Shown here: piece after piece, positions 17,371-61,945 of the stretch | Layout of the letters: each line of letters begins with the position of its first letter | Numbering within the stretch: the first letter of the stretch is position 1 | Source: a candidate division WWE3 bacterium | GTDB taxonomy: Bacteria; Patescibacteriota; WWE3; UBA101185; UBA10185 | DNA length: 64,000 bases | Direction of reading: 5' to 3' | Assembly (NCBI GenBank): GCA_014729135.1 | Contig: WJKK01000001.1 | Location: forward strand, 389,462-453,461 | The notes under the pieces: generated by a model | Databases searched by the model: none | Told to the model about the DNA's origin: nothing | What the model saw: the letters and a program-made list of their open reading frames with translations, nothing else | Made by a program: the position numbers and the translations under genes

Positions 17371-17856
17371 GTGTGCGCTGATTTGAAAAATATGCAATAC
17401 AAAAAAGTCCCTCAATACATCTTAGCTTTCCTAGCAGGCATAGGAGCATTTGCACTTACACTTCGTTTTGAGCTCCTTCTTGTGCAAACTTCCTCCATGG
17501 AGCCAACAATCCCAAAAGCAACAATAATCCTGGTGGATAAGACGGCCCCTTACAAAAAAGGCGACGTAATAACCTTTAAAATAAAAGATTCCTTAGTTAC
17601 TCATCGGCTCATTCAGACCAAAACCACTGAAAACAACCGCTTTCTTACAACTAAAGGTGACGCCAATAACTATATCGACAAAATTCCTCTAACAAGCAAA
17701 GACGTTTTAGGTCGTGTAATTTTCACCTTTCCCTACTTGGGCTATGCTGTTATGTGTTTAATACATCCCTTGTTTTTGCTTTTGTTCTTTTATATTCCGG
17801 TAGGTCATTACTTTGGAAAAATGTCCAAAAAATTTGTAAACCAAATTCGCAATTGA
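17371..17856 (+). CDS. sipW: signal peptidase I, archaeal/ER type (SipW-like, S26B)
   Basis: 161 aa; N- and C-terminal TM; catalytic TSSMEPT box and downstream His-containing box. Confidence 0.75.
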   Translation: MCADLKNMQYKKVPQYILAFLAGIGAFALTLRFELLLVQTSSMEPTIPKATIILVDKTAPYKKGDVITFKIKDSLVTHRLIQTKTTENNRFLTTKGDANNYIDKIPLTSKDVLGRVIFTFPYLGYAVMCLIHPLFLLLFFYIPVGHYFGKMSKKFVNQIRN

Positions 17857-24131: not shown

Positions 24132-25460
24132 ATGGCAAAGAAATCCTCTCAAAATCCACCAGAAAATTTAGAAAAAAAAGCAAAAGATTCTCCTGAAAAA
24201 GCTCCAGGCAAAAACGCACAGGAAGTCAACAAAGATTTAGAAGTGAAATCCTCCTTTAAGTCTTTTGGAAACGATGCGACCAAAAAAGGTGGTAAGAATG
24301 CTAAAAAAGCTTCCTTTACAAAAGCTCAGTCGCTCGGTGCAAAAAAGAAACTTCCTTTAATTTACATAATCCTAGGGGTGCTAATAGCAGGAGCTCTTTC
24401 TTTAGGACTAGTTTATGCCTTTGGTTTTGGAGGCTTTTCCGGTATTGTTAGCCCCCTCTCTGACGGCACTCCCATAACAACAGAACCTCAAGAAGAAATG
24501 GTTGCAAATCCTTTAACAGGTGAAAAATACTCCAAATCAGAAGCCCCTTGGATAAATGACCGCCCTCTAGCCGTAATGGTCAACAACTATATTGACGCAC
24601 GCCCTCAATCCGGTTTAGTTGATGCCGACCTTGTTTATGAAATCGTCGCCGAAGGAGGCATAACAAGATTTATTCCATTTTTTCTCTCCAAAACGCCTGA
24701 AAAAATTGGCCCTGTTAGAAGCACTCGTGATTACTACTTAGTTCTAGTAAAAGAGTTGGGCGACGCCATGATCATGCACATTGGATGGTCTCCTCAGGCT
24801 TTAGAAGCAATAGAAACCTGGCCTGTTCGCAGTTTAGGTAGAGGTGGTGGTAGCTTTTGGCGAGAAAATCCCCGAAACGTTGCTACAGAACATACTGCCT
24901 ATGTAAATGGTAAAGATCTTCGTGAGCTTGGCGATGAATTAGGTTGGGAAGGAACACGTGAATTTCCGGCTTGGCAGTTTAAAGATGACAGTCCTACTCC
25001 ATTAGCGGAAGGGCCCGACTCCTGTGAAACTGTTGCGGCTTTATGCGATCCCTTAACAATAGACTTTTGGTATGAGGGCGATTATTCCGCAATCTTCAAA
25101 TACAATCCCGATAACAACTCATATTTAAGATTTACAGGATACGATGCTAATGGCGATCCGATTCCACATGAAGATCAAGATACAGGTGAACAAATTGAAG
25201 TTAAAAACGTTATTGTTCAGTTTGCTGATGAAAGTGCTATAGAAGGTGATACGAAAAATCGCCTTTCTTATGCTTTGGTGGGCAGCGGAACCGGTTTGGT
25301 CTTTTTGGATGGTACTGTGGAGGAAGTTACTTGGTCTAAAGCCGAAAGAGATGCTCGCACAATGTTTTACGATCTCAATGGTGAAGAGATGCAGTTTAAT
25401 CGCGGTCAGTTTTGGATTAGTATTGTTCCTACAAGGAATGAATCACAAGTTAAGTATTAA
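24132..25460 (+). CDS. DUF3048 (YerB-like) membrane-anchored protein with Lys-rich N-terminal tail
   Basis: 442 aa; K-rich disordered 70 aa, one TM, then PLAVMVNNYIDARPQSGLVDADLVYEIVAEGGITRF, typical of DUF3048. Confidence 0.6.
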   Translation: MAKKSSQNPPENLEKKAKDSPEKAPGKNAQEVNKDLEVKSSFKSFGNDATKKGGKNAKKASFTKAQSLGAKKKLPLIYIILGVLIAGALSLGLVYAFGFGGFSGIVSPLSDGTPITTEPQEEMVANPLTGEKYSKSEAPWINDRPLAVMVNNYIDARPQSGLVDADLVYEIVAEGGITRFIPFFLSKTPEKIGPVRSTRDYYLVLVKELGDAMIMHIGWSPQALEAIETWPVRSLGRGGGSFWRENPRNVATEHTAYVNGKDLRELGDELGWEGTREFPAWQFKDDSPTPLAEGPDSCETVAALCDPLTIDFWYEGDYSAIFKYNPDNNSYLRFTGYDANGDPIPHEDQDTGEQIEVKNVIVQFADESAIEGDTKNRLSYALVGSGTGLVFLDGTVEEVTWSKAERDARTMFYDLNGEEMQFNRGQFWISIVPTRNESQVKY

Positions 25461-26325: not shown

Positions 26326-28008
26326 ATGGACATTAAATCGCGTCTTAATATTTATGGAAAAGCTGCTGATTTAGAAACTGCCCAAAAGCTTTTACTAAAC
26401 AAGCGAGGCTTCTCCAATTTGGATGAGGCTAAAGACTTTTTAAACCCCAAACATGCTCTTGAGTACCTCAGAAACTTTCCATCCGATTTTAAAAACAACT
26501 TAAAAAAGTCGGCCAAACTTATCCGGGAGGCTATAGCAAAAGATCAGCCAATAATAATTCATGGAGATTATGATGCAGATGGAGTTTGCGCTACTTCCAT
26601 TATTTACAACGCCCTAACCAAAGACTTAAACTATCAAAATGTAATTTACTTTATTCCTAACAGATTTGATCACGGCTATGGCCTATCCAAAGGTTCTATA
26701 GATGATTCCATAAGTAAAGCTCTAGCCGAATTAGATAGCGCCTCACAAAAAGCTACTCAAAAACCGGTTCTATTTATAACCGTAGACAGCGGAATCACCT
26801 CCCATGAAGAAGTTGATTACATCAAAAGCCTAGGTCATCAAATTTTAATAACGGATCATCACCAAAAACCCGATACCCTTCCAAAAGCCGATCAAATTTT
26901 ATGGACTGAAAAAATTGTAGGCGCTTCTATAGCTTGGGTTTTGGCCTATGCACTTGGAGCCAAAAACCCTGACTATCTTGCTCTGGCTGCTTTGGCCACA
27001 GTTACCGATGTTTACGATATTAAAGGAATAAACCGCTCTATAGTAAAGCGAGGACTTTCTCAAATTAATACCGCTCCTCCTTTGGGAATTGCCCAGTTAA
27101 TAGAAACTTCCGGTTTAAGCGGTAAGAATATAACGACATATCATTTGGGATGGGTTTTGGGTCCTAGAATAAACGCAACCGGCCGCCTTTCCGAAGCTTC
27201 CAAAGCAGTGCGCCTTTTAACAACTACTGACTCAAAAGTTGCTCTTGCCACAGCTAAACATCTTGATCAAATTAATCGAGATCGGCAAGAAGAGACTTCA
27301 CGCATGTACGATTTGGTAGCCGGAATAAAAACTTCGCAAACCTATTCAGATCAAAATTTCATCCTAGCAGCTCATGAGGACTTTCACGAAGGAATCATTG
27401 GCTTGGTAGCTTCCCGCCTGGTTCGCACTTATTATCGCCCTTCAATTGTCATCAGTAAAAATGAAAAGCACGGTAAGGGGTCGGTTCGCTCTATTGAAGG
27501 CGTTAACATTATTAAGCTTTTGCGTGAGTTTGAAGATTTGTTTGTTGATTTAGGCGGGCATCCTATGGCAGCAGGCTTTACTATTGATTTGCAAAAGATA
27601 GCAGATCTAGAGCAGTCTTTAACTGAGGCTTTTGCGGATCGCTACTCCAAAGAAGTTTTTGTGCCTTCAATTTCTGTTGATGCTGAAATTCTCTTGGATT
27701 TAGTTAATTGGGATTTGTTTAATTTTATAGAGCAGTTGAAGCCTTTTGGGCAAGGGAATCGCTCTCCAAAGTTTTTAACCCGGGATTTAGGTGTGGCAAA
27801 TATTAATTTTGTAGGGCGAGATAAAAATCACACTTCTTTAAAGCTTTTTGATGGTACCCGCTCTCAAAAGGCAATTTATTTTAATTCTAAGGATAAGTTT
27901 TCTAATGTTTCTTTAGGGGATAAACTGGATGTGGTTTATTCTATTAAGGAGAATAATTATCGTGGTAATAGAAGTTTAGATTTGTTTGTCGACGAGATTT
28001 TCTCTTAA
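26326..28008 (+). CDS. recJ: single-stranded-DNA-specific exonuclease RecJ
   Basis: 560 aa; DHH motifs (IIIHGDYDADGV, ITDHHQ) and DHHA1 region. Confidence 0.85.
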   Translation: MDIKSRLNIYGKAADLETAQKLLLNKRGFSNLDEAKDFLNPKHALEYLRNFPSDFKNNLKKSAKLIREAIAKDQPIIIHGDYDADGVCATSIIYNALTKDLNYQNVIYFIPNRFDHGYGLSKGSIDDSISKALAELDSASQKATQKPVLFITVDSGITSHEEVDYIKSLGHQILITDHHQKPDTLPKADQILWTEKIVGASIAWVLAYALGAKNPDYLALAALATVTDVYDIKGINRSIVKRGLSQINTAPPLGIAQLIETSGLSGKNITTYHLGWVLGPRINATGRLSEASKAVRLLTTTDSKVALATAKHLDQINRDRQEETSRMYDLVAGIKTSQTYSDQNFILAAHEDFHEGIIGLVASRLVRTYYRPSIVISKNEKHGKGSVRSIEGVNIIKLLREFEDLFVDLGGHPMAAGFTIDLQKIADLEQSLTEAFADRYSKEVFVPSISVDAEILLDLVNWDLFNFIEQLKPFGQGNRSPKFLTRDLGVANINFVGRDKNHTSLKLFDGTRSQKAIYFNSKDKFSNVSLGDKLDVVYSIKENNYRGNRSLDLFVDEIFS

Positions 28009-28865
28009 TTCAAATTTTCACCTGCTACTTTCTCATGGTATCTCATCAATCTATCAATTCTCCCCTCCACGTCGAAGTCTAAGCCTATCTCTTCGGGAAC
28101 GAAACCGACATCTATTATCCAAGCCTGTAAGCCTTCTTCTTCAGAGTAGCCTATACGAACGCTGTGGTCTCCAATAGTGTATCCCGCCATTTTTGTTGTC
28201 TCATCTGCTATTGAATATACGCGTCGCAGTTCGTCCTCCAACATTTTCCTTTCGGCCTCTGTGAGGGGCTGTTCCAATAGATCTGTTAATTCCATTGCGC
28301 CCACTTTCTCCATTACAGGTACAAAATAGCGCGTAGGAGTGCCAAAAGCGTTCTCCACAGGTGACTCCTGTAGAGCCACACCGTAATATTTAGGGCCCAC
28401 TCCTTTTTCTCCCAAGCGGTGTAAAATATCTGATTGATGAAGATGATAAACGTTTGTATCCGCGCCTTTTTCTATGCGCATTGCATGTAATGCTTTTGCT
28501 ATTAGTGGAGGTGTTTCCACGCCTTCGGGTAATCCTTCTACTCCTAAGACCTCTACCCCTGTATTTGTTGCACCTTGCCCAATAACTTTTCCCAAAGCCG
28601 TTATGTTTAACAATCTGTTTACAGGGGTTTTATAGAGCCCTTCCCCAGAAGTGTCATGTAGTTCTTGTTCTATAAATGTCTCCCCTATGGAGAAGTCTTT
28701 TGCTTCTCCTTCTACTCCCTCTAGTTCTAGGTTGATTTCAAAAGCATCCGGGGCGCTGTATTTTCTTAAACTTTCTTGGTAAGAGGTAGGCATTTCTCCC
28801 CGTTCCGTTTTTAACATATTTCTATTATAGTTTTTGTTGACACACCTTGCAAAATCCCCTATCAT
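28005..28865 (-). CDS. hypothetical protein with protein-kinase-like motifs
   Basis: 286 aa; Gly-rich LGKVIGQGATNTGVEV, HLHQSDILH (His-x-x-Asp), IIDVGF (DFG-like); local GC higher than neighbours. Confidence 0.35.
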   Translation of the reverse strand: MIGDFARCVNKNYNRNMLKTERGEMPTSYQESLRKYSAPDAFEINLELEGVEGEAKDFSIGETFIEQELHDTSGEGLYKTPVNRLLNITALGKVIGQGATNTGVEVLGVEGLPEGVETPPLIAKALHAMRIEKGADTNVYHLHQSDILHRLGEKGVGPKYYGVALQESPVENAFGTPTRYFVPVMEKVGAMELTDLLEQPLTEAERKMLEDELRRVYSIADETTKMAGYTIGDHSVRIGYSEEEGLQAWIIDVGFVPEEIGLDFDVEGRIDRLMRYHEKVAGENLN

Positions 28866-32054: not shown

Positions 32055-33230
32055 TTACTCTAGCGGTTCACTTTCCACCTGCTTCACATACTCCCCTGAA
32101 ACTGCCGGATAATAAAGCGAAATCGAACCCTTCTCATTATTAGGCCCAATGTAATTACCCTCAAAAACATAAACAGGTTGCAAATAAAGCTGCTCCTCCG
32201 AATCGTCATAATAAGCCAAAGAAATATCATTAACTAAAATCTCCGCAATTTCCACAGGCTTATACTCCTGAAAAGGACTTTGCGTATTTGGCTTCACATA
32301 AGAAATCACAGCATTATCCTGAATCACCTGATTCCATGCAGTTCCCACCGGAATAACCGGATACGTAGCCCGTGTTTGTGTCTGAATCTCGCGAACATTG
32401 TACTCAATATGCGGATGAATTAACACATTTCCCACAGCATCCCGATCAACCTCTTTTTTCCCCACATAAACCCGCACCAAACCCCGCCCATGATTAGGCC
32501 CTACAATAGGAAAATCCTCAATCTCCCGGAAAAATTCAACCATCCCAATTTCAGCTTCTCCCGCATAAGACGTATACTCAATAACTCCATTTTCAACACT
32601 TCCCAAATTAACCTCTTGAGACCCCCGCAAATACAAAGGATCCGAAAAGCGTCCAATATTTTGCAGCACATTCTTAGCAATTGCCTTCGCCGAAGTCCTA
32701 TCCATGCTCCCCTCCGGATACTTTCCTGTTAACGATGTCTGAGGAGTTCGCAAATTCAGCTCCTGCGTATTAGTATCAATTGTCAAATTTGCTCCCGTTA
32801 AAGGCTCCACCCACGTATAAACATCTCCCTTCAAATTAGTAGTCAAATTATCCTCCGAAAAACCCAACGTTTCTGCATTTCTGGCAGCACGCTTTCCTGC
32901 CTCATAAGAAAAAGGCGTCTTAATATACTTGTAAACTTTCATCCTTTGAGGCAAATTAGCCGGAAGCTTTCCATCACTTGTAAAAAGCGTGTATTTAGGC
33001 GACTCCGTATTCAATATTTTTTGCGGTTCAAACTGGATAGGCTCCAAAAGCCCAAATGCAGGATTTGGCGGATTCTTTGGCGGAAACATAGCTTTCCAAG
33101 CATTTTTAGCTGCAGGAGCAAGGAAAAATGCCCCCATAAAATACACAAGTATAAACACCACAATTCCCACGAAAGCAAGTTTTGTGGTTTTGGCAGCTGT
33201 AGTAAGACTCATGCATTTATTATAGTACAA
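32055..33230 (-). CDS. hypothetical membrane-anchored extracytoplasmic protein
   Basis: 391 aa; single N-terminal TM then a soluble domain; no family recognised. Confidence 0.5.
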   Translation of the reverse strand: MYYNKCMSLTTAAKTTKLAFVGIVVFILVYFMGAFFLAPAAKNAWKAMFPPKNPPNPAFGLLEPIQFEPQKILNTESPKYTLFTSDGKLPANLPQRMKVYKYIKTPFSYEAGKRAARNAETLGFSEDNLTTNLKGDVYTWVEPLTGANLTIDTNTQELNLRTPQTSLTGKYPEGSMDRTSAKAIAKNVLQNIGRFSDPLYLRGSQEVNLGSVENGVIEYTSYAGEAEIGMVEFFREIEDFPIVGPNHGRGLVRVYVGKKEVDRDAVGNVLIHPHIEYNVREIQTQTRATYPVIPVGTAWNQVIQDNAVISYVKPNTQSPFQEYKPVEIAEILVNDISLAYYDDSEEQLYLQPVYVFEGNYIGPNNEKGSISLYYPAVSGEYVKQVESEPLE

Positions 33231-55598: not shown

Positions 55599-56156
55599 TT
55601 GAAAGTAATAGTTGGTTCTAAAAATCCGGTTAAGCTGGGAGCTGTTGTCAGCGCCTTTGAAGCGATGTTTCCTGGAATTTCATTTGAATTTGAAGGGGTT
55701 TCAGTAGCTTCTGGTGTAAGTGATCAACCTATGTCCGAAGAGGAAACTTTGGAGGGTGCTGAAATTAGAGCTCGTAATGCTCGGGAATCTTCTCCGGAAG
55801 CGACTTATTGGGTTGGTGTTGAAGGTGGTTTGGAAAAAGACTCCTTTGGGTTGCGGTGTTTTAGTTGGGTAGTTGTTCTTGGAAATTCTTCGTGCGTTGG
55901 AAAGGGTTCCTCCGGTAGTTTTTACCTTCCCGCTAAGATTAGCTCTTTAATTGCTGATGGAAAAACTCTAGGTGAAGCAGATGATTTGGTTTTTGATCGA
56001 AAAGATTCATCCAAGAAAGCTGGGGCGATAGGGCTCTTAACCGGAGGAGTAATTAATCGAGAGACTTTTTATTTTCCCGCTGTTGTTAGAGCCCTAATTC
56101 CCCATTTGAATAGTGATTTGTACCCCCATAGTGACTCTCCTAAGCATTCAATATGA
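55599..56156 (+). CDS. yjjX: non-canonical purine NTP phosphatase (YjjX family)
   Basis: 185 aa; MKVIVGSKNPVKL...SGVSDQPMSEEET...YWVGVEGG matches the YjjX ITPase/XTPase pattern. Confidence 0.75.
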   Translation: MKVIVGSKNPVKLGAVVSAFEAMFPGISFEFEGVSVASGVSDQPMSEEETLEGAEIRARNARESSPEATYWVGVEGGLEKDSFGLRCFSWVVVLGNSSCVGKGSSGSFYLPAKISSLIADGKTLGEADDLVFDRKDSSKKAGAIGLLTGGVINRETFYFPAVVRALIPHLNSDLYPHSDSPKHSI

Positions 56157-56224
56157 ATCCTAAGAAGGTATTAAACTTTTTTCATTCTTTTTTTCAATTT
56201 ACTTCAAGTGTGTATAATACCTCC

Positions 56225-57652
56225 ATGGCTTTAGAAAAGCGAAACATCACATCCCAAAAAGAAAGCTTTGCAAAGTGGTATCAAGATGTAGTTCGAGAGG
56301 CAGAATTAGCTGAAAATTCCGATGTGAGAGGTTGCGGTATTGTTAAGCCCTACGGTTTTAAGATCTGGAAACTTATTAAAGAAGAACTCTCCCGAAAAAT
56401 AGATTCTTCCGGTGTTGAAGAGGTGTATTTTCCAATGTTTATACCTCTAAGTAATTTAAATGCGGAAGCTGCTCATGTGGAGGGATTTTCTCCTGAACTT
56501 GCGGTTGTAACTCATGGCGGCGGAAAAGAATTGGAGGAACCTTTGGCTGTTCGCCCTACAAGTGAATCTTCTATGTATCCAACTTTTGGTAAGTGGATAC
56601 AAAGTTATAGAGATTTACCTTTGAGAGTTAATCAATGGAATAATGTTGTGCGCTGGGAAAAACGTCCTCGTCCCTTTTTACGTTGGTCGGAGTTTCTTTG
56701 GCAAGAGGGCCACACAGCTTTTGCAACAGAAAAGGCAGCTCGTAAGGAAGTCCGGGAAATGCTTGAAATGTATAAAGATTTATATGAGTACATGGCTATT
56801 CCCAGTTTTATAGGACGTAAGTCAACTTTGGAAAAATTTGCGGGAGCCGAGATGACTACAACAGTAGAGCTTATGGTTCGCGACGGAAAAGCTATTCAAG
56901 GAGCAACAAGTCACTATTTGGGTACTAACTTTGCTAAAGTTTTTGATGTCCAATATTTAGGTGAAGATGGAGATTTGCATTATTGTCATCAAAATAGTTG
57001 GGGATTAAGTTGGCGCTCTGTTGGTGCCGTTATTATGGCTCATGGTGATGACAGTGGTTTAAGGCTTCCCCCAAATATAGCACCTATACAAGTTGTTATT
57101 GTTCCTATATATAAGGAGGATACACGCTCTAAGGTTTTGGAGTTTGCGGAAAATTTGAAAGAGGAGTTGAGCGATTTTAGAGTTGCGGTAGATCTACGAG
57201 ATGATCAAACTCCCGGTTTTAAATTTAACCATTGGGAGGTTAAGGGAGTTCCTTTGCGTTTGGAGGTAGGAGCTCGTGAAATTGATGAAGGTAAAATTAC
57301 TGTTTTTCGCAGGGACCTAAATGCCAAAACTTCTATTCCTTTAGTTGACTTGTCAAATCAGGTTGAGGGGCTTTTAAAATCTGTTTATACTGAATTATTT
57401 AAACAGGCCAAGGATTTTTCCAGTCGGCATATTCATAGAATAGAAAGTATTGACGATATTAATGATCAAGTAGGCTTTTTTGAGGCAAGTTGGTGTGAGA
57501 GTGTGGAGTCCGAAAAACTCTTAAAAGAGAAATTTTCCATGGTTTCAAGGGTTTTACCGCGTGAGTTTGAAGACAAGGAGCCAAAAAACGAGAAGTGTTT
57601 TATAACGGGAGAACCTGCTAAACATGATTGGCTTTTTGCCAAGTCTTATTGA
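56225..57652 (+). CDS. proS: prolyl-tRNA synthetase, archaeal/eukaryotic type (no editing domain)
   Basis: ORF 56153 trimmed to the ATG at 56225; FAKWYQDV... N-terminus, class II motifs, C-terminal Zn-binding domain ending ...AKSY. Confidence 0.85.
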   Translation: MALEKRNITSQKESFAKWYQDVVREAELAENSDVRGCGIVKPYGFKIWKLIKEELSRKIDSSGVEEVYFPMFIPLSNLNAEAAHVEGFSPELAVVTHGGGKELEEPLAVRPTSESSMYPTFGKWIQSYRDLPLRVNQWNNVVRWEKRPRPFLRWSEFLWQEGHTAFATEKAARKEVREMLEMYKDLYEYMAIPSFIGRKSTLEKFAGAEMTTTVELMVRDGKAIQGATSHYLGTNFAKVFDVQYLGEDGDLHYCHQNSWGLSWRSVGAVIMAHGDDSGLRLPPNIAPIQVVIVPIYKEDTRSKVLEFAENLKEELSDFRVAVDLRDDQTPGFKFNHWEVKGVPLRLEVGAREIDEGKITVFRRDLNAKTSIPLVDLSNQVEGLLKSVYTELFKQAKDFSSRHIHRIESIDDINDQVGFFEASWCESVESEKLLKEKFSMVSRVLPREFEDKEPKNEKCFITGEPAKHDWLFAKSY

Positions 57653-59304
57653 TTAGGCAGATTCTTACTCATATAAAGCTTTTCAAGCTCAAAACCCCTC
57701 TTTCTGTAATACTCCCTTGTGCCTATAGCAGAAATAACACTTAACTTTTTCAAACCTTGCACTTTAGCAATTTCTTCAGCCCTTTCCAAAAGCTTAGTGC
57801 CCAGACCCAGATGCTGTGCTTTTCCCTCCATCTCCTTTCCAATAGGAACAACCTGACCATAAACATGAATTTCCCTTATAATTGCGGAATTTTCAAGCTC
57901 CTCTATAAAATGCCCCTTTTGATATTTTCTTTTTGGAATTGAAAGACGCAAAAAACCAGCTATCTCATCCTTTTTTGTTACAAATGAAATGAAGTACTCT
58001 GTTGAAATCGTAGTCTTATATTTTTGTACCTGCAGCTCCAAGTCCTCTTGAGTCACTTCTTTGTTTTTAATTTCCCGGCATCTAATGCACTTACAGGAGT
58101 TGCCTTCCTTTTTAAGCTTATTAAAAACCAGCTGCCTTAGATTAGATCTTTTTGTTCCTGCTGCAATCTCCTGAGAGGGTATGTCCCGCATAACTCTTGT
58201 GATTCTGCAGAATTTAGGCACTTGCTTTTTAAGTTCAGCCACAAGATTTACCAGAGTTTCTTCTGCATAAGGAGTGTATTTGCCTGCTTCGAAAAGTTCG
58301 TGAAGTTTTGTGTTTTCAATTACCGAAGTAGGGTAGATTTTTAATTCATCCGGTTGAAAATCCTTTGACCATAGCTTTTTAAAATCCTTTACATCTTTTT
58401 TAGGAGTTGCCCCATGCAGATTTACCATCCAATGAGCCTGAATTTTAAATCCTGCCAAACGCAGCAGCTCAAAAGCCTTCTTAATTTGTTTTACGGTATG
58501 ATCGCGTTTGTTTAATTTAAGCAGTTTATTATTAAGAGTTTGCACGCCAATTTGCACTTTTGTACACCCTAAACTTCGCAAGTGAATTACTTCCTCTTTG
58601 GTTATTAGATCCGGACGAGTTTCCAAGGAAAGGCCCACACATTTGTGTTTTGCAGTTTCGTTAATTTTCTGCTGCTCTCGTAGCTCTTTTAAAGTTGCTT
58701 TTTTTTCTGGATTTTTCTTTTTGCTCTGTTTCTTTTCCGTTGGATTATTCGAAGCCTCAAAACACCTCTTTATAAACCAAACCTGATAACCCTTTGGATA
58801 CGCCGACCAAGAACCTCCCAAAACAATTAGTTCCACTTTTTCGGTATTATGCCCAATATTTTTTAGCGCCTGAATACGCCTCTGCACCTGCAAATAAGGA
58901 TCAAAATTTAAAGCTGCAGCTCTTTGGGCCCCCGGTTCACTTTCTATATAGCTTTTTGGCATATTTGGCTCATTAGGGCAATAAATACATTTTCCCGGAC
59001 ATGGCCAAGGCTTTGTTAGCACCGTTACCGGAGTTACTCCCGATTGCGTGCGAATGGGCTTCATCCTAATTCTTTTGATAATCTTTTTATTTGGTTCAAG
59101 GAGGTTGTTTTTTACAAGATGTTTATAGCCTCTTAAAAGGTCGTTCTTGCTAAACATATGCTTTCCATCTTTGGGGTGCTGCGCTTGAATCTGTCTAAGC
59201 CTGTCTTTATCCCACTTTTCCTCAGTTTGAATAGCTTTCAAAATTTTCAGCAGGATCTTTTCGTATTTTTCTGCCTCAAACTTATATTTTTGCGTCTTGT
59301 ACAT
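57646..59304 (-). CDS. elp3: Elp3-family radical SAM / GNAT acetyltransferase
   Basis: 552 aa; CPGKCIYC CxxxCxxC radical-SAM cluster; C-terminal GNAT with QHLGLGTKLLERAEEIA. Confidence 0.8.
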   Translation of the reverse strand: MYKTQKYKFEAEKYEKILLKILKAIQTEEKWDKDRLRQIQAQHPKDGKHMFSKNDLLRGYKHLVKNNLLEPNKKIIKRIRMKPIRTQSGVTPVTVLTKPWPCPGKCIYCPNEPNMPKSYIESEPGAQRAAALNFDPYLQVQRRIQALKNIGHNTEKVELIVLGGSWSAYPKGYQVWFIKRCFEASNNPTEKKQSKKKNPEKKATLKELREQQKINETAKHKCVGLSLETRPDLITKEEVIHLRSLGCTKVQIGVQTLNNKLLKLNKRDHTVKQIKKAFELLRLAGFKIQAHWMVNLHGATPKKDVKDFKKLWSKDFQPDELKIYPTSVIENTKLHELFEAGKYTPYAEETLVNLVAELKKQVPKFCRITRVMRDIPSQEIAAGTKRSNLRQLVFNKLKKEGNSCKCIRCREIKNKEVTQEDLELQVQKYKTTISTEYFISFVTKKDEIAGFLRLSIPKRKYQKGHFIEELENSAIIREIHVYGQVVPIGKEMEGKAQHLGLGTKLLERAEEIAKVQGLKKLSVISAIGTREYYRKRGFELEKLYMSKNLPNQ

Positions 59305-59340
59305 GCGCGTATTTTAGCACTAAGGTATAATCTTCATGTT

Positions 59341-60330
59341 GTGAAACTAAAAACGGAAAAGTCAGAAAATACCTCCGCGGAAAAAAACAAAAAGGGGAAG
59401 CTTTTAAAAACAGGCCTAAAAATACTTGTAAGCTCGGTTCTTTTGTACGTCATTTTCTCCAGAATCGATAAAGAAAGCTTCATTCAAAACATAAGCCTTA
59501 TGGATTTGCGTCTAGCCCCCTTCATCATAGGTTTTATAATTCTTAACTACATAGTAAGCGCTTTTCGTTGGAAGCAGCTTCTTATCTATAAGGAAACACG
59601 TCAAGTGAAGCTTCCTTATCTAATAAATCTCTATTTCATCGGTTCTTTTTTCAACAACTTTATGCCTACAAGCATAGGTGGCGATGTGTTTAAGATGTAC
59701 CAACTTGGCCGCAAAATAGGTAATGCAGCAAAAGGCCTTTCCGCAACTTTCATGGAGCGTTTTACAGGAATCATTGCTTTGGTGACGATTTCCTATTTTG
59801 GTTTAATTAGAACGCTTCCGTTTTGGGTGGAAATGTTACCTGCAGATGCTCAAGCCAATCCCTTGTTGGTTACACTTTTTAAAGTCGTTTTATTTACGGG
59901 ATTTTGGATAGCTGCCGTCATTGGGTTTTTCTCTTTAAGCATTTTAGCCAAAAAAATATCCTTTTTTGAAAAAATCTATTCAGCACTTATTTCCTATAAG
60001 AACAACACGAAGCCTCTTTTTAAAGCCTTTTTAATTTCATTTGCCGTCCAACTCCTTTCAATTTTCACCCAATACTTCATTTTCCTTTCTTTAGGCGTGG
60101 AATTACCTTTGTTCTATTCCTTTTTTGTGTTTCCCGTTATAACTTTAGCCGGATTTTTTGTGCCTTCCTTAAATGGTCTTGGTGTTCAGGATGCCCTATA
60201 TATCAGCTTTATGGGAATGGTTGGAGTTTCGGAATCTTTAGCTTTAAGCGCCTCTATTCTTTATCATCTCTCCCGACTTTTGGTAAGCTTAATTGGAGGA
60301 GTTTTATATGCCCTGGGAAAAAATGAATAA
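59341..60330 (+). CDS. flippase-like (LPG-synthase TM / UPF0104) membrane protein; start uncertain
   Basis: ORF 59158 overlaps elp3; GTG at 59341 follows TATAAT at 59325-59330; IGSFFNNFMPTSIGGDVFK core motif. Confidence 0.5.
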   Translation: MKLKTEKSENTSAEKNKKGKLLKTGLKILVSSVLLYVIFSRIDKESFIQNISLMDLRLAPFIIGFIILNYIVSAFRWKQLLIYKETRQVKLPYLINLYFIGSFFNNFMPTSIGGDVFKMYQLGRKIGNAAKGLSATFMERFTGIIALVTISYFGLIRTLPFWVEMLPADAQANPLLVTLFKVVLFTGFWIAAVIGFFSLSILAKKISFFEKIYSALISYKNNTKPLFKAFLISFAVQLLSIFTQYFIFLSLGVELPLFYSFFVFPVITLAGFFVPSLNGLGVQDALYISFMGMVGVSESLALSASILYHLSRLLVSLIGGVLYALGKNE

Positions 60331-61945
60331 ACTATTTACAAATAAGGTTCTCCTGATTTTTGTTTTCATAGTGCTTTTTGCTGCAACCCGCCTTCCTTAT
60401 TTAGGTAAAGATGCCATTAATCCCGATGCTGTTAATTGGCACTATCGTTCAGAGCAGTTTGTTGTGGGTTTAAAAAATGGAATTTGGGAAAAGACCTATC
60501 AGCATTATCACCCGGGAGTTACTTTGATGTGGGTTTTAGGGCCAACGGTTGAGGTTGCTCGGCAGATTAATCCGGAGTTTCGGGTTTACGATCATCATAA
60601 CTTTTTATATTTGCATACTTTAGGTAAGCAGGTTTTGGTGGCGGTTCAGTTGATTCTTTCTTTAGGGGTTTTGTACGTTTTTTCCAAAATTTTAGGTTTT
60701 TACAAAGGGTTTTTTGTGACGGCGCTTTTTTCTTTAGAGCCTTTTTTCATCGGAAATTCGCGGATGCTTCACATGGATGTTTTGTTGACGCTGTTTTTGT
60801 GTTTGGGCTTGGGTCTTGCTTATTTAGGCCTTTTTTCCGGAAAAGCTTTTAGTAAATCCTCTGAGGGGACTGTCTCTTCAACTGGGCTTTCCAGCAAAGG
60901 TATTTTCAAAACCGGGAACCCCTCAATAGCACTCATCTTCTCCGGAGTCTTTTTAGCGCTTGCTTTCCTAACTAAGAGCATTGCTATAGGGGCCATTCTT
61001 TTTGTTTTAGGCATGGCTGTTTTAGTAAAACTAAAAACCCCCAAGGAATTACCGAAGACTTTATTGCTAATACTTGTCCCTTTTGTTGCGGCTTTATTTC
61101 TGTTCTTTCCGGCACTTTGGGTAGAGCCTGTTCATACCATAGTTCGAATTTTTGATGAAGCCGAACGCGTGGGAATTAGAAAAGGGCATGGTCAGATTTA
61201 TTTTGGCAAGTACACACGAGATCCAGGATTGTTTTTTTATCCTGTTGTGATCTTTTTAAAAACTTCTCCCGTTTTGCTTTTAGGAGTTTTAGCTTTTCTT
61301 GCAACTCTGCTAAAGGCCTCTAAAGGCAAACCTCTAGTTCGATTTTTCCGTGACAATGAAATTTCCTTTTTAGGCTTTTTAACAATATTTTTTGCAGGAT
61401 ACATGTTGGTCATGACCATATCCTCCAAAAAGATTGATCGCTACTTAGTCCCGCTTTTTCCTTACTTAAGCTTAATGGCAGTCTTAGGCTTTGCGTCTTT
61501 AAAAAAGATAAAGAGCGCTGTAATAGTTTCACTTTCTTTACTTGCCCTACTGGCCTTAAACTACAAAGCACATCCTTATCAATTCACGTACACAACTCCT
61601 CTTGTAGGATCTGCCGAAAGAGCCCACTGGATGGTTGCCCAAAAACCTTTTGGCATAGGAATCCCTTATCTTAAAGAGTTAATCCTGGATTCCTACGGCA
61701 AAAACTACCCTCCTCTAGGTTTTTACGATACTAAGCCTATGAAAACAATTTATCCTGCCACAAAAGTAGCTGATGTTGATGTAAATGGCGTTTCGGACTA
61801 TGTGTTTTTGATTCTGGGTCCTAACGAAGAGATGCCTGAGGAAGTCTTGGATTCGCCTTATCCCTTTGAATTAGATAAAGTAGTAAATATAAATGGTTTA
61901 GATTATTGGAGAATTTATGATCGAAAAGGAAATCCCCAAGATTAA
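60293..61945 (+). CDS. GT-C membrane glycosyltransferase (PMT_2/ArnT-like), paralog A
   Basis: 550 aa polytopic; conserved QHYHPGVTLMW loop shared with the gene at 63457. Confidence 0.55.
   Translation: MEEFYMPWEKMNKLFTNKVLLIFVFIVLFAATRLPYLGKDAINPDAVNWHYRSEQFVVGLKNGIWEKTYQHYHPGVTLMWVLGPTVEVARQINPEFRVYDHHNFLYLHTLGKQVLVAVQLILSLGVLYVFSKILGFYKGFFVTALFSLEPFFIGNSRMLHMDVLLTLFLCLGLGLAYLGLFSGKAFSKSSEGTVSSTGLSSKGIFKTGNPSIALIFSGVFLALAFLTKSIAIGAILFVLGMAVLVKLKTPKELPKTLLLILVPFVAALFLFFPALWVEPVHTIVRIFDEAERVGIRKGHGQIYFGKYTRDPGLFFYPVVIFLKTSPVLLLGVLAFLATLLKASKGKPLVRFFRDNEISFLGFLTIFFAGYMLVMTISSKKIDRYLVPLFPYLSLMAVLGFASLKKIKSAVIVSLSLLALLALNYKAHPYQFTYTTPLVGSAERAHWMVAQKPFGIGIPYLKELILDSYGKNYPPLGFYDTKPMKTIYPATKVADVDVNGVSDYVFLILGPNEEMPEEVLDSPYPFELDKVVNINGLDYWRIYDRKGNPQD

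What the first reader, a model, noticed from the sequence alone, without database searches (positions are those of the whole stretch)
57646..59304. Bacterial Elp3 homolog (radical SAM + GNAT) on the opposite strand inside the glycosylation island
Seen in sequence: the CPGKCIYC CxxxCxxC cluster follows ...KPIRTQSGVTPVTVLTKPWPC..., and the C-terminal GNAT carries QHLGLGTKLLERAEEIA. Both are Elp3 hallmarks. Established knowledge: Elp3 catalyses cm5U34 tRNA wobble modification in eukaryotes and archaea. Bacterial homologs are rare, with Dehalococcoides as the known example. Inference: this is a tRNA-modifying enzyme of likely archaeal affinity in this lineage. That fits the archaeal-type AspRS and ProRS here.
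Basis: partly seen in the sequence, partly recalled or inferred. Interest (0 to 1): 0.55.

Follow-up and report, generated by a model that had tools for sequence, protein, structure and literature searches.

The report
Stand-alone bacterial Elp3 tRNA-modifying enzyme
This gene is an intact, already-annotated Elp3 (the enzyme that adds a carboxymethyl group to the wobble uridine of tRNA) in a tiny-genome WWE3 bacterium; it belongs to a large bacterial Elp3 lineage rather than being a recent archaeal import, and unlike most relatives it has no Trm9-like methyltransferase gene next to it.

Summary
Window 57646-59304 (-) encodes a 552-aa protein with a radical-SAM domain (CPGKCIYC), Radical_SAM_C and a C-terminal GNAT domain (QHLGLG). 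It scores 538 bits on TIGR01211/ELP3 (cutoff 350). Every experimentally validated Elp3 catalytic residue is present, and the confident AF2 model matches only Elp3 structures at high score. NCBI already names it Elp3 (MBD3366152.1, candidate division WWE3).

- **Rarity:** Bacterial Elp3 is not rare. One peptide-seeded scan of GTDB species genomes found 106 relatives, and the 80 kept were all bacterial (about 7 phyla).
- **Archaeal affinity:** This is not supported. Archaeal Elp3s split from all bacterial ones (189/200 bootstraps), and two indels agree. The query is about 43% identical to both archaeal Elp3s and DmcElp3, but 47-74% identical to other bacterial Elp3s.

Three further results:
- The main bacterial clade has its own basic N-terminal domain, which Pfam ELP3_N does not detect.
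- Most bacterial elp3 genes are paired divergently with a Trm9-like methyltransferase.
- That partner is absent from this 64-kb window and probably from this genome.

Verdict: a real, ordinary member of a known family, with moderately interesting context.

The parts
57646..59304 (-). elp3 coding sequence, 552 aa, ATG start, TAA stop
   Evidence: ORF; TIGR01211 538 bits vs cutoff 350; identical to NCBI MBD3366152.1, named Elp3
59059..59304 (-). N-terminal basic helical domain, residues 1-82 (23 K/R, 10 D/E); presumed tRNA-binding extension of bacterial type
   Evidence: Translation. AF2 helices 11-27, 33-42, 53-65 and 73-79 at pLDDT 86-95. No Pfam ELP3_N hit; hhalign vs archaeal N-termini gives 4% probability. 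An HMM of this domain hits Elp3 N-termini in Acidobacteriota 38/38, Chloroflexota 10/10, Myxococcota 7/7 and archaeal-side 0/114.
58354..59058 (-). radical-SAM domain, residues 83-317
   Evidence: Pfam Radical_SAM 102-301. Contains K156, E228 and K287, equivalents of MinElp3 K150, E207 and K266.
58978..59001 (-). [4Fe-4S] cluster motif CPGKCIYC (C102, C106, C109), Cx3Cx2C spacing
   Evidence: Translation. Aligned to MinElp3 C90/C95/C98. The three Cys are invariant in all 139 aligned sequences; the spacing is bacterial-type.
58660..58749 (-). variable Lys-rich surface loop, residues 186-215 (NNPTEKKQSKKKNPEKKATLKELREQQKIN)
   Evidence: Translation. 30 residues here vs 15 in Dmc/Min and 60-88 in Acidobacteriota/Myxococcota. 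pLDDT dips to about 64.
58111..58353 (-). Radical_SAM_C domain, residues 318-398, with K322 and Y324 (MinElp3 K302, Y304)
   Evidence: Pfam 1.8e-20; residue mapping
58078..58095 (-). linker Cys triad CKCIRC (C404, C406, C409), equivalent to the zinc-binding/disulfide linker motif of Dmc/Min Elp3
   Evidence: Translation; mapping. Retained here but replaced in Acidobacteriota, Myxococcota and many CPR.
57658..58047 (-). GNAT/KAT domain, residues 420-549, with E478, H480 and Y532 (MinElp3 Q461, H463, Y517)
   Evidence: Pfam Acetyltransf_1 436-538; mapping; conservation
57799..57816 (-). acetyl-CoA binding loop QHLGLG (Q-x-x-G-x-G), residues 497-502
   Evidence: Translation. Q497 and G502 are invariant wherever a residue is aligned, and G500 in all but 3 archaeal-side sequences.
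59305..59340 (.). short divergent intergenic gap between elp3 and the LPG_synthase_TM gene (probable GTG start at 59341). In the closest relatives a Trm9-like methyltransferase gene occupies this slot; here it is empty.
   Evidence: Sequence; synteny; MTase positions; no MTase hit anywhere in the window
56153..57652 (+). proS (archaeal/eukaryotic-type ProRS), convergent neighbour overlapping the elp3 stop by 7 bp; context only
   Evidence: TIGR00408 549.7 bits vs cutoff 437; sequence; absent from the syntenic site in L001-L004

Best explanation
The gene encodes a functional, stand-alone Elp3, a tRNA wobble-uridine (U34) 5-carboxymethyl (cm5U) synthase.

Inferred mechanism, by homology to MinElp3 and Elongator:
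1. The basic N-terminal helical domain (residues 1-82) and the cleft between the two catalytic domains bind the tRNA anticodon stem-loop.
2. tRNA binding triggers hydrolysis of acetyl-CoA held in the GNAT domain (QHLGLG loop, K287, E478, Y532; trigger lysine K156).
3. The released acetate travels through an internal tunnel to the radical-SAM site.
4. There the [4Fe-4S] cluster on C102/C106/C109 cleaves SAM to a 5'-deoxyadenosyl radical, which abstracts a hydrogen from the acetate methyl group.
5. The resulting radical adds to C5 of U34, positioned by E228, K322 and Y324.

Evolutionarily it belongs to a large bacterial Elp3 clade (CPR, Acidobacteriota, Chloroflexota, Myxococcota, Planctomycetota and others). 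That clade is distinct from archaeal Elp3 and also from the atypical, N-terminally truncated Dehalococcoides enzyme.

In most members of the clade a divergently transcribed Trm9-like methyltransferase probably converts cm5U to mcm5U. This genome has no such gene at the syntenic site, so here the pathway may stop at cm5U or continue by another route.

Shown: family membership, residue conservation, predicted fold, phylogenetic placement and gene-neighbourhood pattern. Inferred: enzymatic activity, substrate tRNAs and the end product.
For: - **Family scores:** TIGR01211 gives 538 bits vs cutoff 350 over the full model length. All three Pfam domains are present.
- **Solved homologues:** phmmer against PDB hits only Elp3 chains, from 1e-112 (M. 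infernus) through 1e-105 (D. mccartyi) to 1e-92..-94 (yeast, mouse, human).
- **Catalytic residues:** Every MinElp3 residue validated by mutagenesis (PMC6367351: K150, K266, Q461, Y517; PMC13315578: E207, K302, Y304) maps to an identical residue. The exception is Q461->E478, and Glu is also found in DmcElp3 (E386) and in 24/32 archaeal-side sequences. These positions are invariant in 60 close relatives.
- **Predicted structure:** AF2 gives pLDDT 89.7 and pTM 0.85. The top 11 Foldseek hits are all Elp3. The best is tRNA-bound human Elp3, 8ptx_C, at E = 3.8e-44 and TMq 0.82; the next family is at 1.8e-07.
- **Phylogeny and indels:**
- **N-terminal domain conserved across bacterial phyla:**
- **Partner methyltransferase:** It is adjacent and divergent in 33 loci and present in the flank of 57-58 of about 70 informative loci. 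Its profile's best PDB match is Trm9 (5cm2_Z, 1e-17), with R29, D72, H115, H116, W145, W168 and R241 equivalents conserved.
Against: - No biochemical or tRNA-nucleoside data exist for any CPR organism, and none exist for any bacterial Elp3 in vivo (PMC7663514).
- DmcElp3, the only bacterial enzyme tested, is weakly active in vitro.
- The window has no tRNA genes, so substrates cannot be examined.
- The N-terminal domain has no detectable sequence homology to the archaeal/eukaryotic ELP3_N, so its tRNA-binding role is inferred from charge, position and whole-chain structural superposition only.
- The usual Trm9-like partner is missing nearby, which could hint at a pathway in decay.
- The tree is neighbour-joining without eukaryotes, and the archaeal sample was drawn from neighbours of MinElp3.
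Confidence: 0.85

Rival explanations
1. Recent horizontal acquisition from archaea: the enzyme is an archaeal-type Elp3 that entered this CPR lineage, in line with its archaeal-type AspRS and ProRS.
For: The best-scoring solved structure by sequence is archaeal MinElp3, at 381 bits vs 358 for Dmc. The protein has a long basic N-terminus like archaeal Elp3 and unlike Dmc. AspRS and ProRS in the window are archaeal-type families.
Against: The higher Min score reflects a longer alignment (69-549 vs 83-549). Core identity is 43% to both. The archaeal/bacterial bipartition has 189/200 support, and the query is nested in CPR at 200/200. The Cx3Cx2C motif and 6-residue spacer are shared with all bacterial Elp3s and not with archaeal ones. 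The N-terminus is not ELP3_N but is shared with Acidobacteriota, Chloroflexota and Myxococcota. proS is not even syntenic in the closest relatives.
Confidence: 0.05
2. The protein is a protein lysine acetyltransferase or another non-tRNA acyltransferase (the historical 'histone acetyltransferase, ELP3 family' annotation), or it modifies another RNA.
For: It has a GNAT fold with an intact acetyl-CoA site. Older database names for homologues read 'histone acetyltransferase, ELP3 family'.
Against: [quoted passage not shown] The radical-SAM residues needed specifically for cm5U formation (E228, K322, Y324) are invariant. Linkage across several phyla to a Trm9-like cm5U methyltransferase points to tRNA U34.
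Confidence: 0.04
3. The gene is a relic on the way to loss, or has been repurposed in this particular genome, because its usual methyltransferase partner is gone.
For: No Trm9-like sequence occurs in the 64-kb window. No close homologue on an 864,248-bp contig appears among the top 120 database hits. Local rearrangement is evident from the proS-ITPase insertion.
Against: The ORF is full length, with no frameshift, and every catalytic residue is intact. About 12 other loci with adequate flanks also lack an adjacent MTase. cm5U itself, or an ncm5U-type derivative, could be a functional end product. A divergent MTase below about 38% identity, like that of L023, would have escaped.
Confidence: 0.05
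4. It belongs to a different radical-SAM family that merely resembles Elp3, such as MnmL/YtqA/YhcC or HemN/HemW-like.
For: Secondary NCBIfam hits: TIGR01212 MnmL/YtqA 71.7 bits, HemZ 48 bits, HemW 45 bits.
Against: All are far below their cutoffs (180, 321 and 205), cover only residues about 204-400, and lack the GNAT domain. The Elp3 model is matched end to end above its cutoff.
Confidence: 0.01

Closest known systems
Dehalococcoides mccartyi Elp3 (DmcElp3; PDB 5L7J, 5L7L, 6IA6), the only characterised bacterial Elp3
   Same: It is a stand-alone enzyme with rSAM + Radical_SAM_C + KAT architecture. It has the identical CPGKCIYCP motif with Cx3Cx2C spacing and the same 6-residue spacer to P-x-S-Y. 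It has Glu at the MinElp3 Q461 position (E386 vs E478) and the CxCxxC linker triad.
   Different: Core identity is only 43%. Dmc lacks the whole N-terminal domain: the query has 82 extra residues, and Dmc residue 4 aligns to query residue 83. The query has a 30-residue loop at 186-215 where Dmc has 15. In the tree Dmc branches next to the archaeal cluster (196/200), far from the query's clade.
Methanocaldococcus infernus Elp3 (MinElp3; PDB 6IA8, 6IAZ, 6IAD), the mechanistic model enzyme
   Same: It is a monomeric stand-alone enzyme of similar length with a basic N-terminal extension of about 75 aa. All validated catalytic and tunnel residues are conserved: K150, E207, K266, K302, Y304, H463 and Y517, plus the tunnel positions I154/M156, which are I160/L162 here.
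   Different: Identity is 44%. Min has Cx4Cx2C and a 5-residue insertion after the cluster. Its N-terminus is Pfam ELP3_N, which the query's is not. Q461 is Glu in the query.
Eukaryotic Elp3 within Elongator (yeast 6QK7/8ASV/8ASW, human 8PTX, mouse 8AVG)
   Same: The fold is the same. The best structural match overall is tRNA-bound human Elp3 (TMq 0.82, 568 aligned columns), which suggests the query's N-terminal helices superpose on the ordered eukaryotic N-terminus.
   Different: Sequence identity in the structural alignments is 31-36%. Eukaryotic Elp3 needs Elp1, Elp2 and Elp4-6, whereas stand-alone function is expected here as in archaea. No Elongator accessory genes are seen in the window.
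MnmL/YtqA/YhcC (TIGR01212), radical-SAM tRNA xm5U34 enzyme of bacteria
   Same: It shares the rSAM + Radical_SAM_C core and acts on wobble-uridine side chains.
   Different: It has no GNAT domain. The query scores 71.7 bits vs a cutoff of 180, so it is not a member.
Trm9 (Trm9-Trm112, PDB 5CM2; ALKBH8 MTase domain), for the partner gene found beside elp3 in relatives
   Same: The profile of the bacterial partner hits Trm9 first (1e-17, near full length). Equivalents of Sc R29, D72, H115, H116, W145, W168 and R241 are invariant or at least 90% conserved. Elp3-Trm9 gene clustering is already noted in Sulfolobus (PMC6144793).
   Different: Sc Y243 is mostly Cys (RYCH motif), and N271 could not be aligned. 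Dependence on Trm112 is unknown. No curated NCBIfam model covers the family. The gene is not present in this window.

Membership tests
Elp3 (TIGR01211; tRNA U34 cm5U synthase) | Full-length match to the curated family model above its trusted cutoff | tested here: met
   538.2 bits vs cutoff 350; protein residues 24-549 match model positions 5-522 of 522
Elp3 (TIGR01211; tRNA U34 cm5U synthase) | Radical-SAM domain with three cluster-ligating cysteines | tested here: met
   C102/C106/C109 align to MinElp3 C90/C95/C98 and are invariant in 139 sequences; Pfam Radical_SAM 4e-14
Elp3 (TIGR01211; tRNA U34 cm5U synthase) | Radical_SAM_C domain following the rSAM core | tested here: met
   PF16199 1.8e-20, residues 318-398
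Elp3 (TIGR01211; tRNA U34 cm5U synthase) | C-terminal GNAT/KAT domain with a Q/R-x-x-G-x-G/A acetyl-CoA loop | tested here: met
   Acetyltransf_1 7.8e-6 at 26.6 bits vs cutoff 20.7; QHLGLG at 497-502; Q497 and G502 are invariant wherever a residue is aligned, and G500 in all but 3 archaeal-side sequences
Elp3 (TIGR01211; tRNA U34 cm5U synthase) | Residues shown by mutagenesis to be needed for acetyl-CoA hydrolysis and cm5U formation (MinElp3 K150, E207, K266, K302, Y304, Q461, Y517) | tested here: met
   K156, E228, K287, K322, Y324 and Y532 are identical. Q461 is E478, as in DmcElp3 E386 and 24/32 archaeal-side sequences.
Elp3 (TIGR01211; tRNA U34 cm5U synthase) | Elp3 fold with the rSAM and KAT domains packed around a cleft | tested here: met
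   AF2 pLDDT 89.7, pTM 0.85. Foldseek ranks 1-11 are all Elp3, with TM normalised to target 0.81-0.92. This is a predicted structure, not a solved one.
Elp3 (TIGR01211; tRNA U34 cm5U synthase) | Fe-S cluster and SAM binding, tRNA-induced acetyl-CoA hydrolysis, and cm5U34 formation | not testable with these tools
   Requires anaerobic reconstitution and LC-MS of tRNA nucleosides
Archaeal/eukaryotic-type Elp3 subgroup | Pfam ELP3_N (PF23613) N-terminal domain | tested here: not met
   No hit at E <= 0.01 in the query, whereas archaeal P0135 hits at 1.1e-14. hhalign probability is 4%. An archaeal N-terminal HMM hits 0/117 bacterial N-termini, and the reciprocal test gives 0/114.
Archaeal/eukaryotic-type Elp3 subgroup | Cx4Cx2C cluster spacing and an 8-11-residue spacer before P-x-S-Y | tested here: not met
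   The query has Cx3Cx2C and a 6-residue spacer, like 105/106 bacterial sequences; 31/32 archaeal-side sequences have Cx4
Archaeal/eukaryotic-type Elp3 subgroup | Phylogenetic placement among archaeal sequences | tested here: not met
   The archaeal-side vs bacterial bipartition is 189/200, and the query lies in a CPR clade at 200/200. This is a neighbour-joining tree with limited archaeal sampling and no eukaryotes.
Eukaryotic Elongator holo-complex | Presence of Elp1, Elp2 and Elp4-6 partners | not tested
   Nothing resembling them appeared among the window ORFs annotated. Absence is expected for prokaryotes (PMC6367351).
MnmL/YtqA/YhcC (TIGR01212) | Score above the family cutoff | tested here: not met
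   71.7 bits vs cutoff 180; only residues 217-400 match
Bacterial Elp3 + Trm9-like divergent gene pair (pattern defined here) | A Trm9-like class-I methyltransferase immediately upstream of elp3 on the opposite strand | tested here: not met
   The pair is present in L001-L004, L023 and 33 loci in all. In the window only about 36 bp separate elp3 from the LPG_synthase_TM gene, and there is no tblastn or HMM hit anywhere in the 64 kb.
Trm9 family (for the partner protein in related loci) | Best profile match and conservation of the validated active-site residues | tested here: inconclusive
   The top PDB hit is 5cm2_Z at 1e-17 vs 1.9e-13 for the next hit. Seven of the eight aligned critical residues are conserved, Y243 is mostly Cys, and N271 is unaligned. 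No curated model passes.

The most novel reading that the evidence does not exclude
This Elp3 may represent the main, uncharacterised bacterial Elp3 lineage, which spans at least seven phylum-level labels. That lineage carries its own N-terminal tRNA-binding domain, unrelated in sequence to ELP3_N, and is normally wired to a Trm9-type methyltransferase. On this reading an Elongator-style cm5U -> mcm5U wobble pathway, so far described only in eukaryotes and archaea, would be native to many bacteria. The textbook bacterial example (Dehalococcoides) would be an atypical, archaeal-like outlier. This particular WWE3 genome would be a natural 'Trm9-less' variant that stops at cm5U or uses an unknown follow-up step.
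Probability: 0.4. Interest if true: 0.6.

Novelty: new member of a known kind. Interest (0 to 1): 0.35.

Why it matters
The gene itself is an ordinary, already-annotated family member. The value lies in its context, in three respects.

First, published discussion of bacterial Elp3 rests on one enzyme, DmcElp3. That enzyme lacks the N-terminal domain, binds tRNA weakly and is barely active. Here it proves unrepresentative of the bulk of bacterial Elp3s.

Second, a full-length bacterial Elp3 from the main clade would be a better model for stand-alone Elp3 biochemistry.

Third, the widespread Elp3/Trm9-like gene pair predicts mcm5U-type wobble modifications in Acidobacteriota, Chloroflexota, Myxococcota, Planctomycetota and CPR bacteria. 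This is directly testable by tRNA mass spectrometry in any cultured member.

For CPR biology, it shows that a genome of roughly 0.86 Mb keeps an oxygen-sensitive radical-SAM wobble-uridine enzyme, which implies that U34 modification matters for decoding there. Whether it replaces MnmE/MnmG could not be checked.

Tried and rejected
- **Source contig:** An exact-protein lookup found no record, so the rest of the genome could not be read. Only the 64-kb window could be screened, and it has no MnmE, MnmG, MnmA or Trm9-like gene.
- **tRNA and Rfam scans:** Both were empty, so no substrate tRNAs could be inspected.
- **Glatt et al. 2016 (PMC5018218):** The paper is not held. Statements about DmcElp3 come from the 2019, 2020 and 2025 papers.
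- **Motif filter for the methyltransferase:** My first regular-expression filter was too strict and missed the Chloroflexota copies. I replaced it with an HMM search.
- **Spurious 'conserved neighbours':** Clusters 2, 4 and 5 were ORFs overlapping elp3 in high-GC genomes and were discarded.
- **Q461->E478:** I considered this a possibly meaningful active-site change. I rejected that because Glu is the majority state, including in DmcElp3 and 24/32 archaeal-side sequences.
- **Viral origin or carriage:** Only two weak fragments restricted to the radical-SAM region appeared (30-31% identity, covering query residues 66-300 at most), and neither is an Elp3.
- **Functional link to the glycosylation genes:** The position is conserved only among the four closest relatives and is lost in more distant CPR, so no functional link is claimed.
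- **Literature searches:** Searches for Elp3 with CPR, Patescibacteria, Acidobacteria or a bacterial Trm9 pairing found nothing relevant.

Full report
**Observation.** An ORF of 552 aa lies at exactly 57646-59304 on the minus strand. It contains KPIRTQSGVTPVTVLTKPWPC followed by CPGKCIYC (residues 82-109; window 58978-59001) and QHLGLGTKLLERAEEIA (residues 497-513). Pfam finds Radical_SAM (4e-14), the Elp3-typical Radical_SAM_C (1.8e-20) and Acetyltransf_1 (7.8e-6) in that order. The curated NCBIfam model TIGR01211 'ELP3' matches end to end at 538 bits against a cutoff of 350. The next family, MnmL/YtqA, reaches 72 bits against a cutoff of 180. Against all PDB sequences, the only hits are Elp3 chains: M. 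infernus 1e-112, D. mccartyi 1e-105, and yeast/mouse/human 1e-92 to 1e-94.

**Host and prior annotation.** The window carries bacterial SecY, RpoA, RNase Y, RecJ, GltX, RecA, GreA and RF2. Exact-sequence look-ups show that the window's SecY, RpoA and AspRS are NCBI proteins of a 'candidate division WWE3 bacterium' on an 864,248-bp contig. The Elp3 itself is MBD3366152.1, already named Elp3 by NCBI's pipeline. Identifying it as Elp3 is therefore not new at the database level.

**Active site and fold.** I derived MinElp3 numbering from the phmmer alignment and validated it against residues named in two papers: K150/I154/M156 fall in DKIELIIMGG. With that numbering, the cluster cysteines C90/C95/C98 map to C102/C106/C109. 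The residues required for tRNA-induced acetyl-CoA hydrolysis or binding (K150, K266, Y517; PMC6367351) map to K156, K287 and Y532. The residues required for cm5U formation in the radical-SAM site (E207, K302, Y304; PMC13315578) map to E228, K322 and Y324. Only Q461 differs (E478), and Glu is also the state in DmcElp3 (E386), in all other bacterial groups sampled except Chloroflexota (mostly Asp), and in 24 of 32 archaeal-side sequences. All these positions are invariant among 60 close relatives. An AlphaFold2 model built on that alignment is confident (pLDDT 89.7, pTM 0.85). Its 11 best PDB matches are all Elp3, and the next family follows at E = 1.8e-07. The best match is tRNA-bound human Elp3 (8ptx_C, TMq 0.82, 568 aligned columns). 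Structures lacking an ordered N-terminus give TMq 0.63-0.74. This suggests, but does not prove, that the query's N-terminal helices occupy the place of the eukaryotic N-terminus.

[quoted passage not shown] A 2026 paper says 'numerous bacteria'. In the databases the query has at least 7,968 homologues at E <= 1e-10, a capped figure. A peptide-seeded scan of one genome per GTDB species found 106 relatives. The 80 kept were all bacterial: Patescibacteria (Saccharibacteria-labelled, Dojka-, Beckwith-, Falkowbacteria, WWE3), Acidobacteriota, Chloroflexota, Myxococcota, Planctomycetota and Acidimicrobiales. 'Rare' is therefore outdated.

**Archaeal affinity?** I gathered 120 neighbours of MinElp3. 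The named ones are Methanococcales, Methanothermus and Aciduliprofundum. Two unnamed ones sit beside archaeal exosome or GPN-loop GTPase genes. All but two of the 120 carry Pfam ELP3_N, and every one used in the tree does.
- **Tree:** A neighbour-joining tree of 139 sequences over 451 core columns, with 200 bootstraps, separates all 32 archaeal-side sequences from all 107 bacterial ones at 189/200. It places the query in a 12-member CPR clade at 200/200.
- **Indels:** Two discrete characters agree. Bacterial Elp3s have Cx3Cx2C (105/106, plus the query) and a 6-residue spacer to P-x-S-Y. Archaeal-side ones have Cx4Cx2C (31/32) and mostly 8 or 11 residues.
- **Identity:** Core identity of the query is 43% to DmcElp3 and a median of 43% to archaeal-side Elp3s. 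It is 47-54% to Acidobacteriota, Chloroflexota, Myxococcota and Planctomycetota, and up to 74% within CPR.
- **Position of Dmc:** DmcElp3 is the bacterial sequence closest to the archaeal cluster ({Dmc + archaea} 196/200). The only characterised bacterial Elp3 is thus atypical of bacteria.

The caveats are that the tree is distance-based, has no eukaryotes, and samples archaea only around MinElp3.

**N-terminal domain.** The query has 82 residues ahead of the point where DmcElp3 begins. They are strongly basic (23 K/R against 10 D/E) and are predicted as four helices at pLDDT 86-95.
- Pfam ELP3_N matches archaeal P0135 (1.1e-14) but not the query.
- hhalign of bacterial against archaeal N-terminal alignments gives 4% probability, and an archaeal N-terminal HMM hits 0/117 bacterial N-termini.
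- An HMM built only from the query's closest clade detects the N-termini of Elp3s from Acidobacteriota (38/38), Chloroflexota (10/10), Myxococcota (7/7), Planctomycetota (2/2) and named CPR (9/13). It detects 0/114 archaeal-side proteins.

There is thus a bacterial-type Elp3 N-terminal domain, conserved across phyla and not captured by current domain models. By analogy with MinElp3, whose N-terminus provides most of the tRNA affinity, I infer that it binds tRNA.

**Genomic context.** elp3 is a lone minus-strand gene. Its stop overlaps the stop of the convergent proS by 7 bp. Upstream, only about 36 bp separate its ATG from the probable GTG start of an LPG_synthase_TM gene. Around it lie GT4 and GT2 glycosyltransferases, UDP-glucose dehydrogenase, PMT_2-type transferases, DUF2079 and a Wzx-like flippase. 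In the four closest relatives (64-71% identity) elp3 occupies the same place and orientation between the flippase and the LPG_synthase/PMT genes. Those relatives lack the ITPase-proS pair. More distant CPR share no neighbours. The placement is therefore a lineage-specific gene order and not evidence of a functional link to glycosylation.

**A conserved partner, missing here.** I clustered all ORFs in the flanks of the 80 bacterial loci. This revealed a class-I SAM methyltransferase of about 225-265 aa immediately upstream of elp3 on the opposite strand.
- **Distribution:** It is adjacent (<400 bp, often with overlapping starts) in 33 loci. It lies within the fetched flank in 57-58 of about 70 informative loci, across CPR (including L001-L004 and the complete WWE3 genome L023), Chloroflexota, Acidobacteriota, Myxococcota, Planctomycetota and Acidimicrobiales.
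- **Family assignment:** Pfam and NCBIfam give only generic methyltransferase hits below family cutoffs. A profile of 33 members finds Yarrowia Trm9 (5cm2_Z) as the best solved relative, at 1e-17 over nearly its full length, against 1.9e-13 for the next generic enzyme.
- **Active-site residues:** The Trm9 residues shown by mutagenesis to matter (Sc R29, D72, H115, H116, W145, W168, R241; PMC4678810) align with columns that are invariant or at least 90% conserved (R28, D82, H127, H128, W157, W190, R198). Y243 is mostly Cys, and N271 falls outside the aligned stretch.
- **Prior recognition:** JGI already labels many of these proteins 'TRM9'. Elp3-Trm9 clustering has been noted in Sulfolobus. I found no paper describing it in bacteria.
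- **Status in this genome:** The window has no trace of this gene (no tblastn or HMM hit). In a database search with the closest relative's methyltransferase, none of the top 120 hits (down to about 38% identity) lies on an 864,248-bp contig. By contrast, the nearest relatives' Elp3 and methyltransferase share contigs. A more divergent copy, such as L023's at 34% identity, would have been missed. I therefore rate absence from the genome as probable but not shown.

**Mechanism proposed.**
1. *Shown:* family membership, intact catalytic residues, predicted fold and neighbourhood pattern.
2. *Inferred from MinElp3/Elongator work:* tRNA binds via the N-terminal domain and the inter-domain cleft, and this triggers acetyl-CoA hydrolysis (K156, K287, E478, Y532, QHLGLG). 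Acetate passes through the tunnel (I160 and L162 line it). The C102/C106/C109 cluster cleaves SAM. The 5'-deoxyadenosyl radical abstracts a hydrogen from acetate, and the carbon radical adds to C5 of U34, positioned by E228, K322 and Y324, giving cm5U.
3. *Inferred from gene linkage:* in most bacteria with this enzyme a Trm9-like methyltransferase converts cm5U to mcm5U. In this genome that step is probably missing or is performed by something else.

**Verdict.** This is a correct identification of a real and intact Elp3. It is ordinary as a family member and is already annotated. The claims of rarity and archaeal affinity do not hold. The moderately interesting results are the distinctness of the main bacterial Elp3 clade from DmcElp3, its own N-terminal domain, and the widespread Elp3/Trm9-like pair from which this genome deviates.

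Noticed in passing
L001:5116-5838(-), L003:5221-5949(-), L004:5037-5816(-), L023:5173-5856(-) and about 50 further loci; empty slot at window 59305-59340: A Trm9-like class-I SAM methyltransferase is divergently paired with elp3 across at least 7 bacterial phylum labels. It is adjacent in 33 loci, and its best PDB profile hit is Trm9 5cm2_Z at 1e-17. It is absent from this window and probably from this genome.
   Followed up: yes
window 59059-59304 (-), residues 1-82: A bacterial-type Elp3 N-terminal domain, basic and predicted as four helices, is conserved across bacterial phyla. Pfam ELP3_N does not detect it, and it has no detectable sequence similarity to archaeal N-termini.
   Followed up: yes
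window 55599-57652 (+): An ITPase/XTPase gene plus proS sit between the Wzx-like flippase and elp3 only in this genome. The four closest relatives have flippase and elp3 directly adjacent, so this looks like a local insertion or rearrangement. The NCBI proS product differs from the longest ORF, since that exact sequence is not in the collection, so its start codon is probably downstream of 56153.
   Followed up: partly
window 59311-59319 (-): TGcTAAAAT, an extended -10-like element, ends 6 nt before the elp3 ATG, and there is no obvious Shine-Dalgarno sequence. The mRNA may be leaderless. The consensus promoter scan did not flag it.
   Followed up: no
window 58078-58095 (-), residues 404-409 (CKCIRC): The linker Cys triad (a zinc site in DmcElp3, a disulfide in MinElp3) is kept in the query, Dmc, most Chloroflexota and archaea. 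It is replaced by Asp/Ala/Ser in all sampled Acidobacteriota, in Myxococcota and in about 40% of CPR relatives.
   Followed up: partly
window 58660-58749 (-), residues 186-215: A Lys-rich low-confidence loop varies greatly in length among Elp3s: 15 aa in Dmc/Min, 30 here, and 60-88 in Acidobacteriota/Myxococcota. The Haloferax paper reports an insertion at about the same place.
   Followed up: partly
window 59158-60330 (+): The longest ORF of the LPG_synthase_TM gene would overlap elp3 by 147 bp. However, the Pfam match starts at residue 87, and a GTG at 59341 is the more likely start.
   Followed up: partly
window 17371-17856 (+): The signal peptidase I scores above cutoff on the archaeal-type model TIGR02228 (79.6 vs 51.85) rather than the bacterial model. 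This is another 'archaeal-type' housekeeping gene in this CPR genome, alongside AspRS and ProRS.
   Followed up: no
L001-L004, L030, L045, L047, L050, L051, L057, L067: Taxonomic labels look unreliable. The window is labelled WWE3, but its closest Elp3 and synteny relatives are labelled Saccharibacteria. The complete WWE3 genome L023 has only about 50% identical Elp3. Several MAGs labelled Pseudomonadales or Gammaproteobacteria carry CPR-like Elp3s (52-57% identity).
   Followed up: no
L083:5514-5876 (-): In an archaeal MAG, elp3 (P0197) overlaps a convergent ThiS/Urm1-like gene. That gene may be a sulfur carrier for 2-thiolation of the same wobble uridine.
   Followed up: no
window 24132-25460 (+), 60293-61945 (+), 32055-33230 (-), 28005-28865 (-): Several sizeable ORFs (442, 550, 391 and 286 aa) had no hit in the one family library each was searched against. 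The 550-aa ORF is a multi-pass membrane protein conserved next to the PMT_2 gene in relatives.
   Followed up: no
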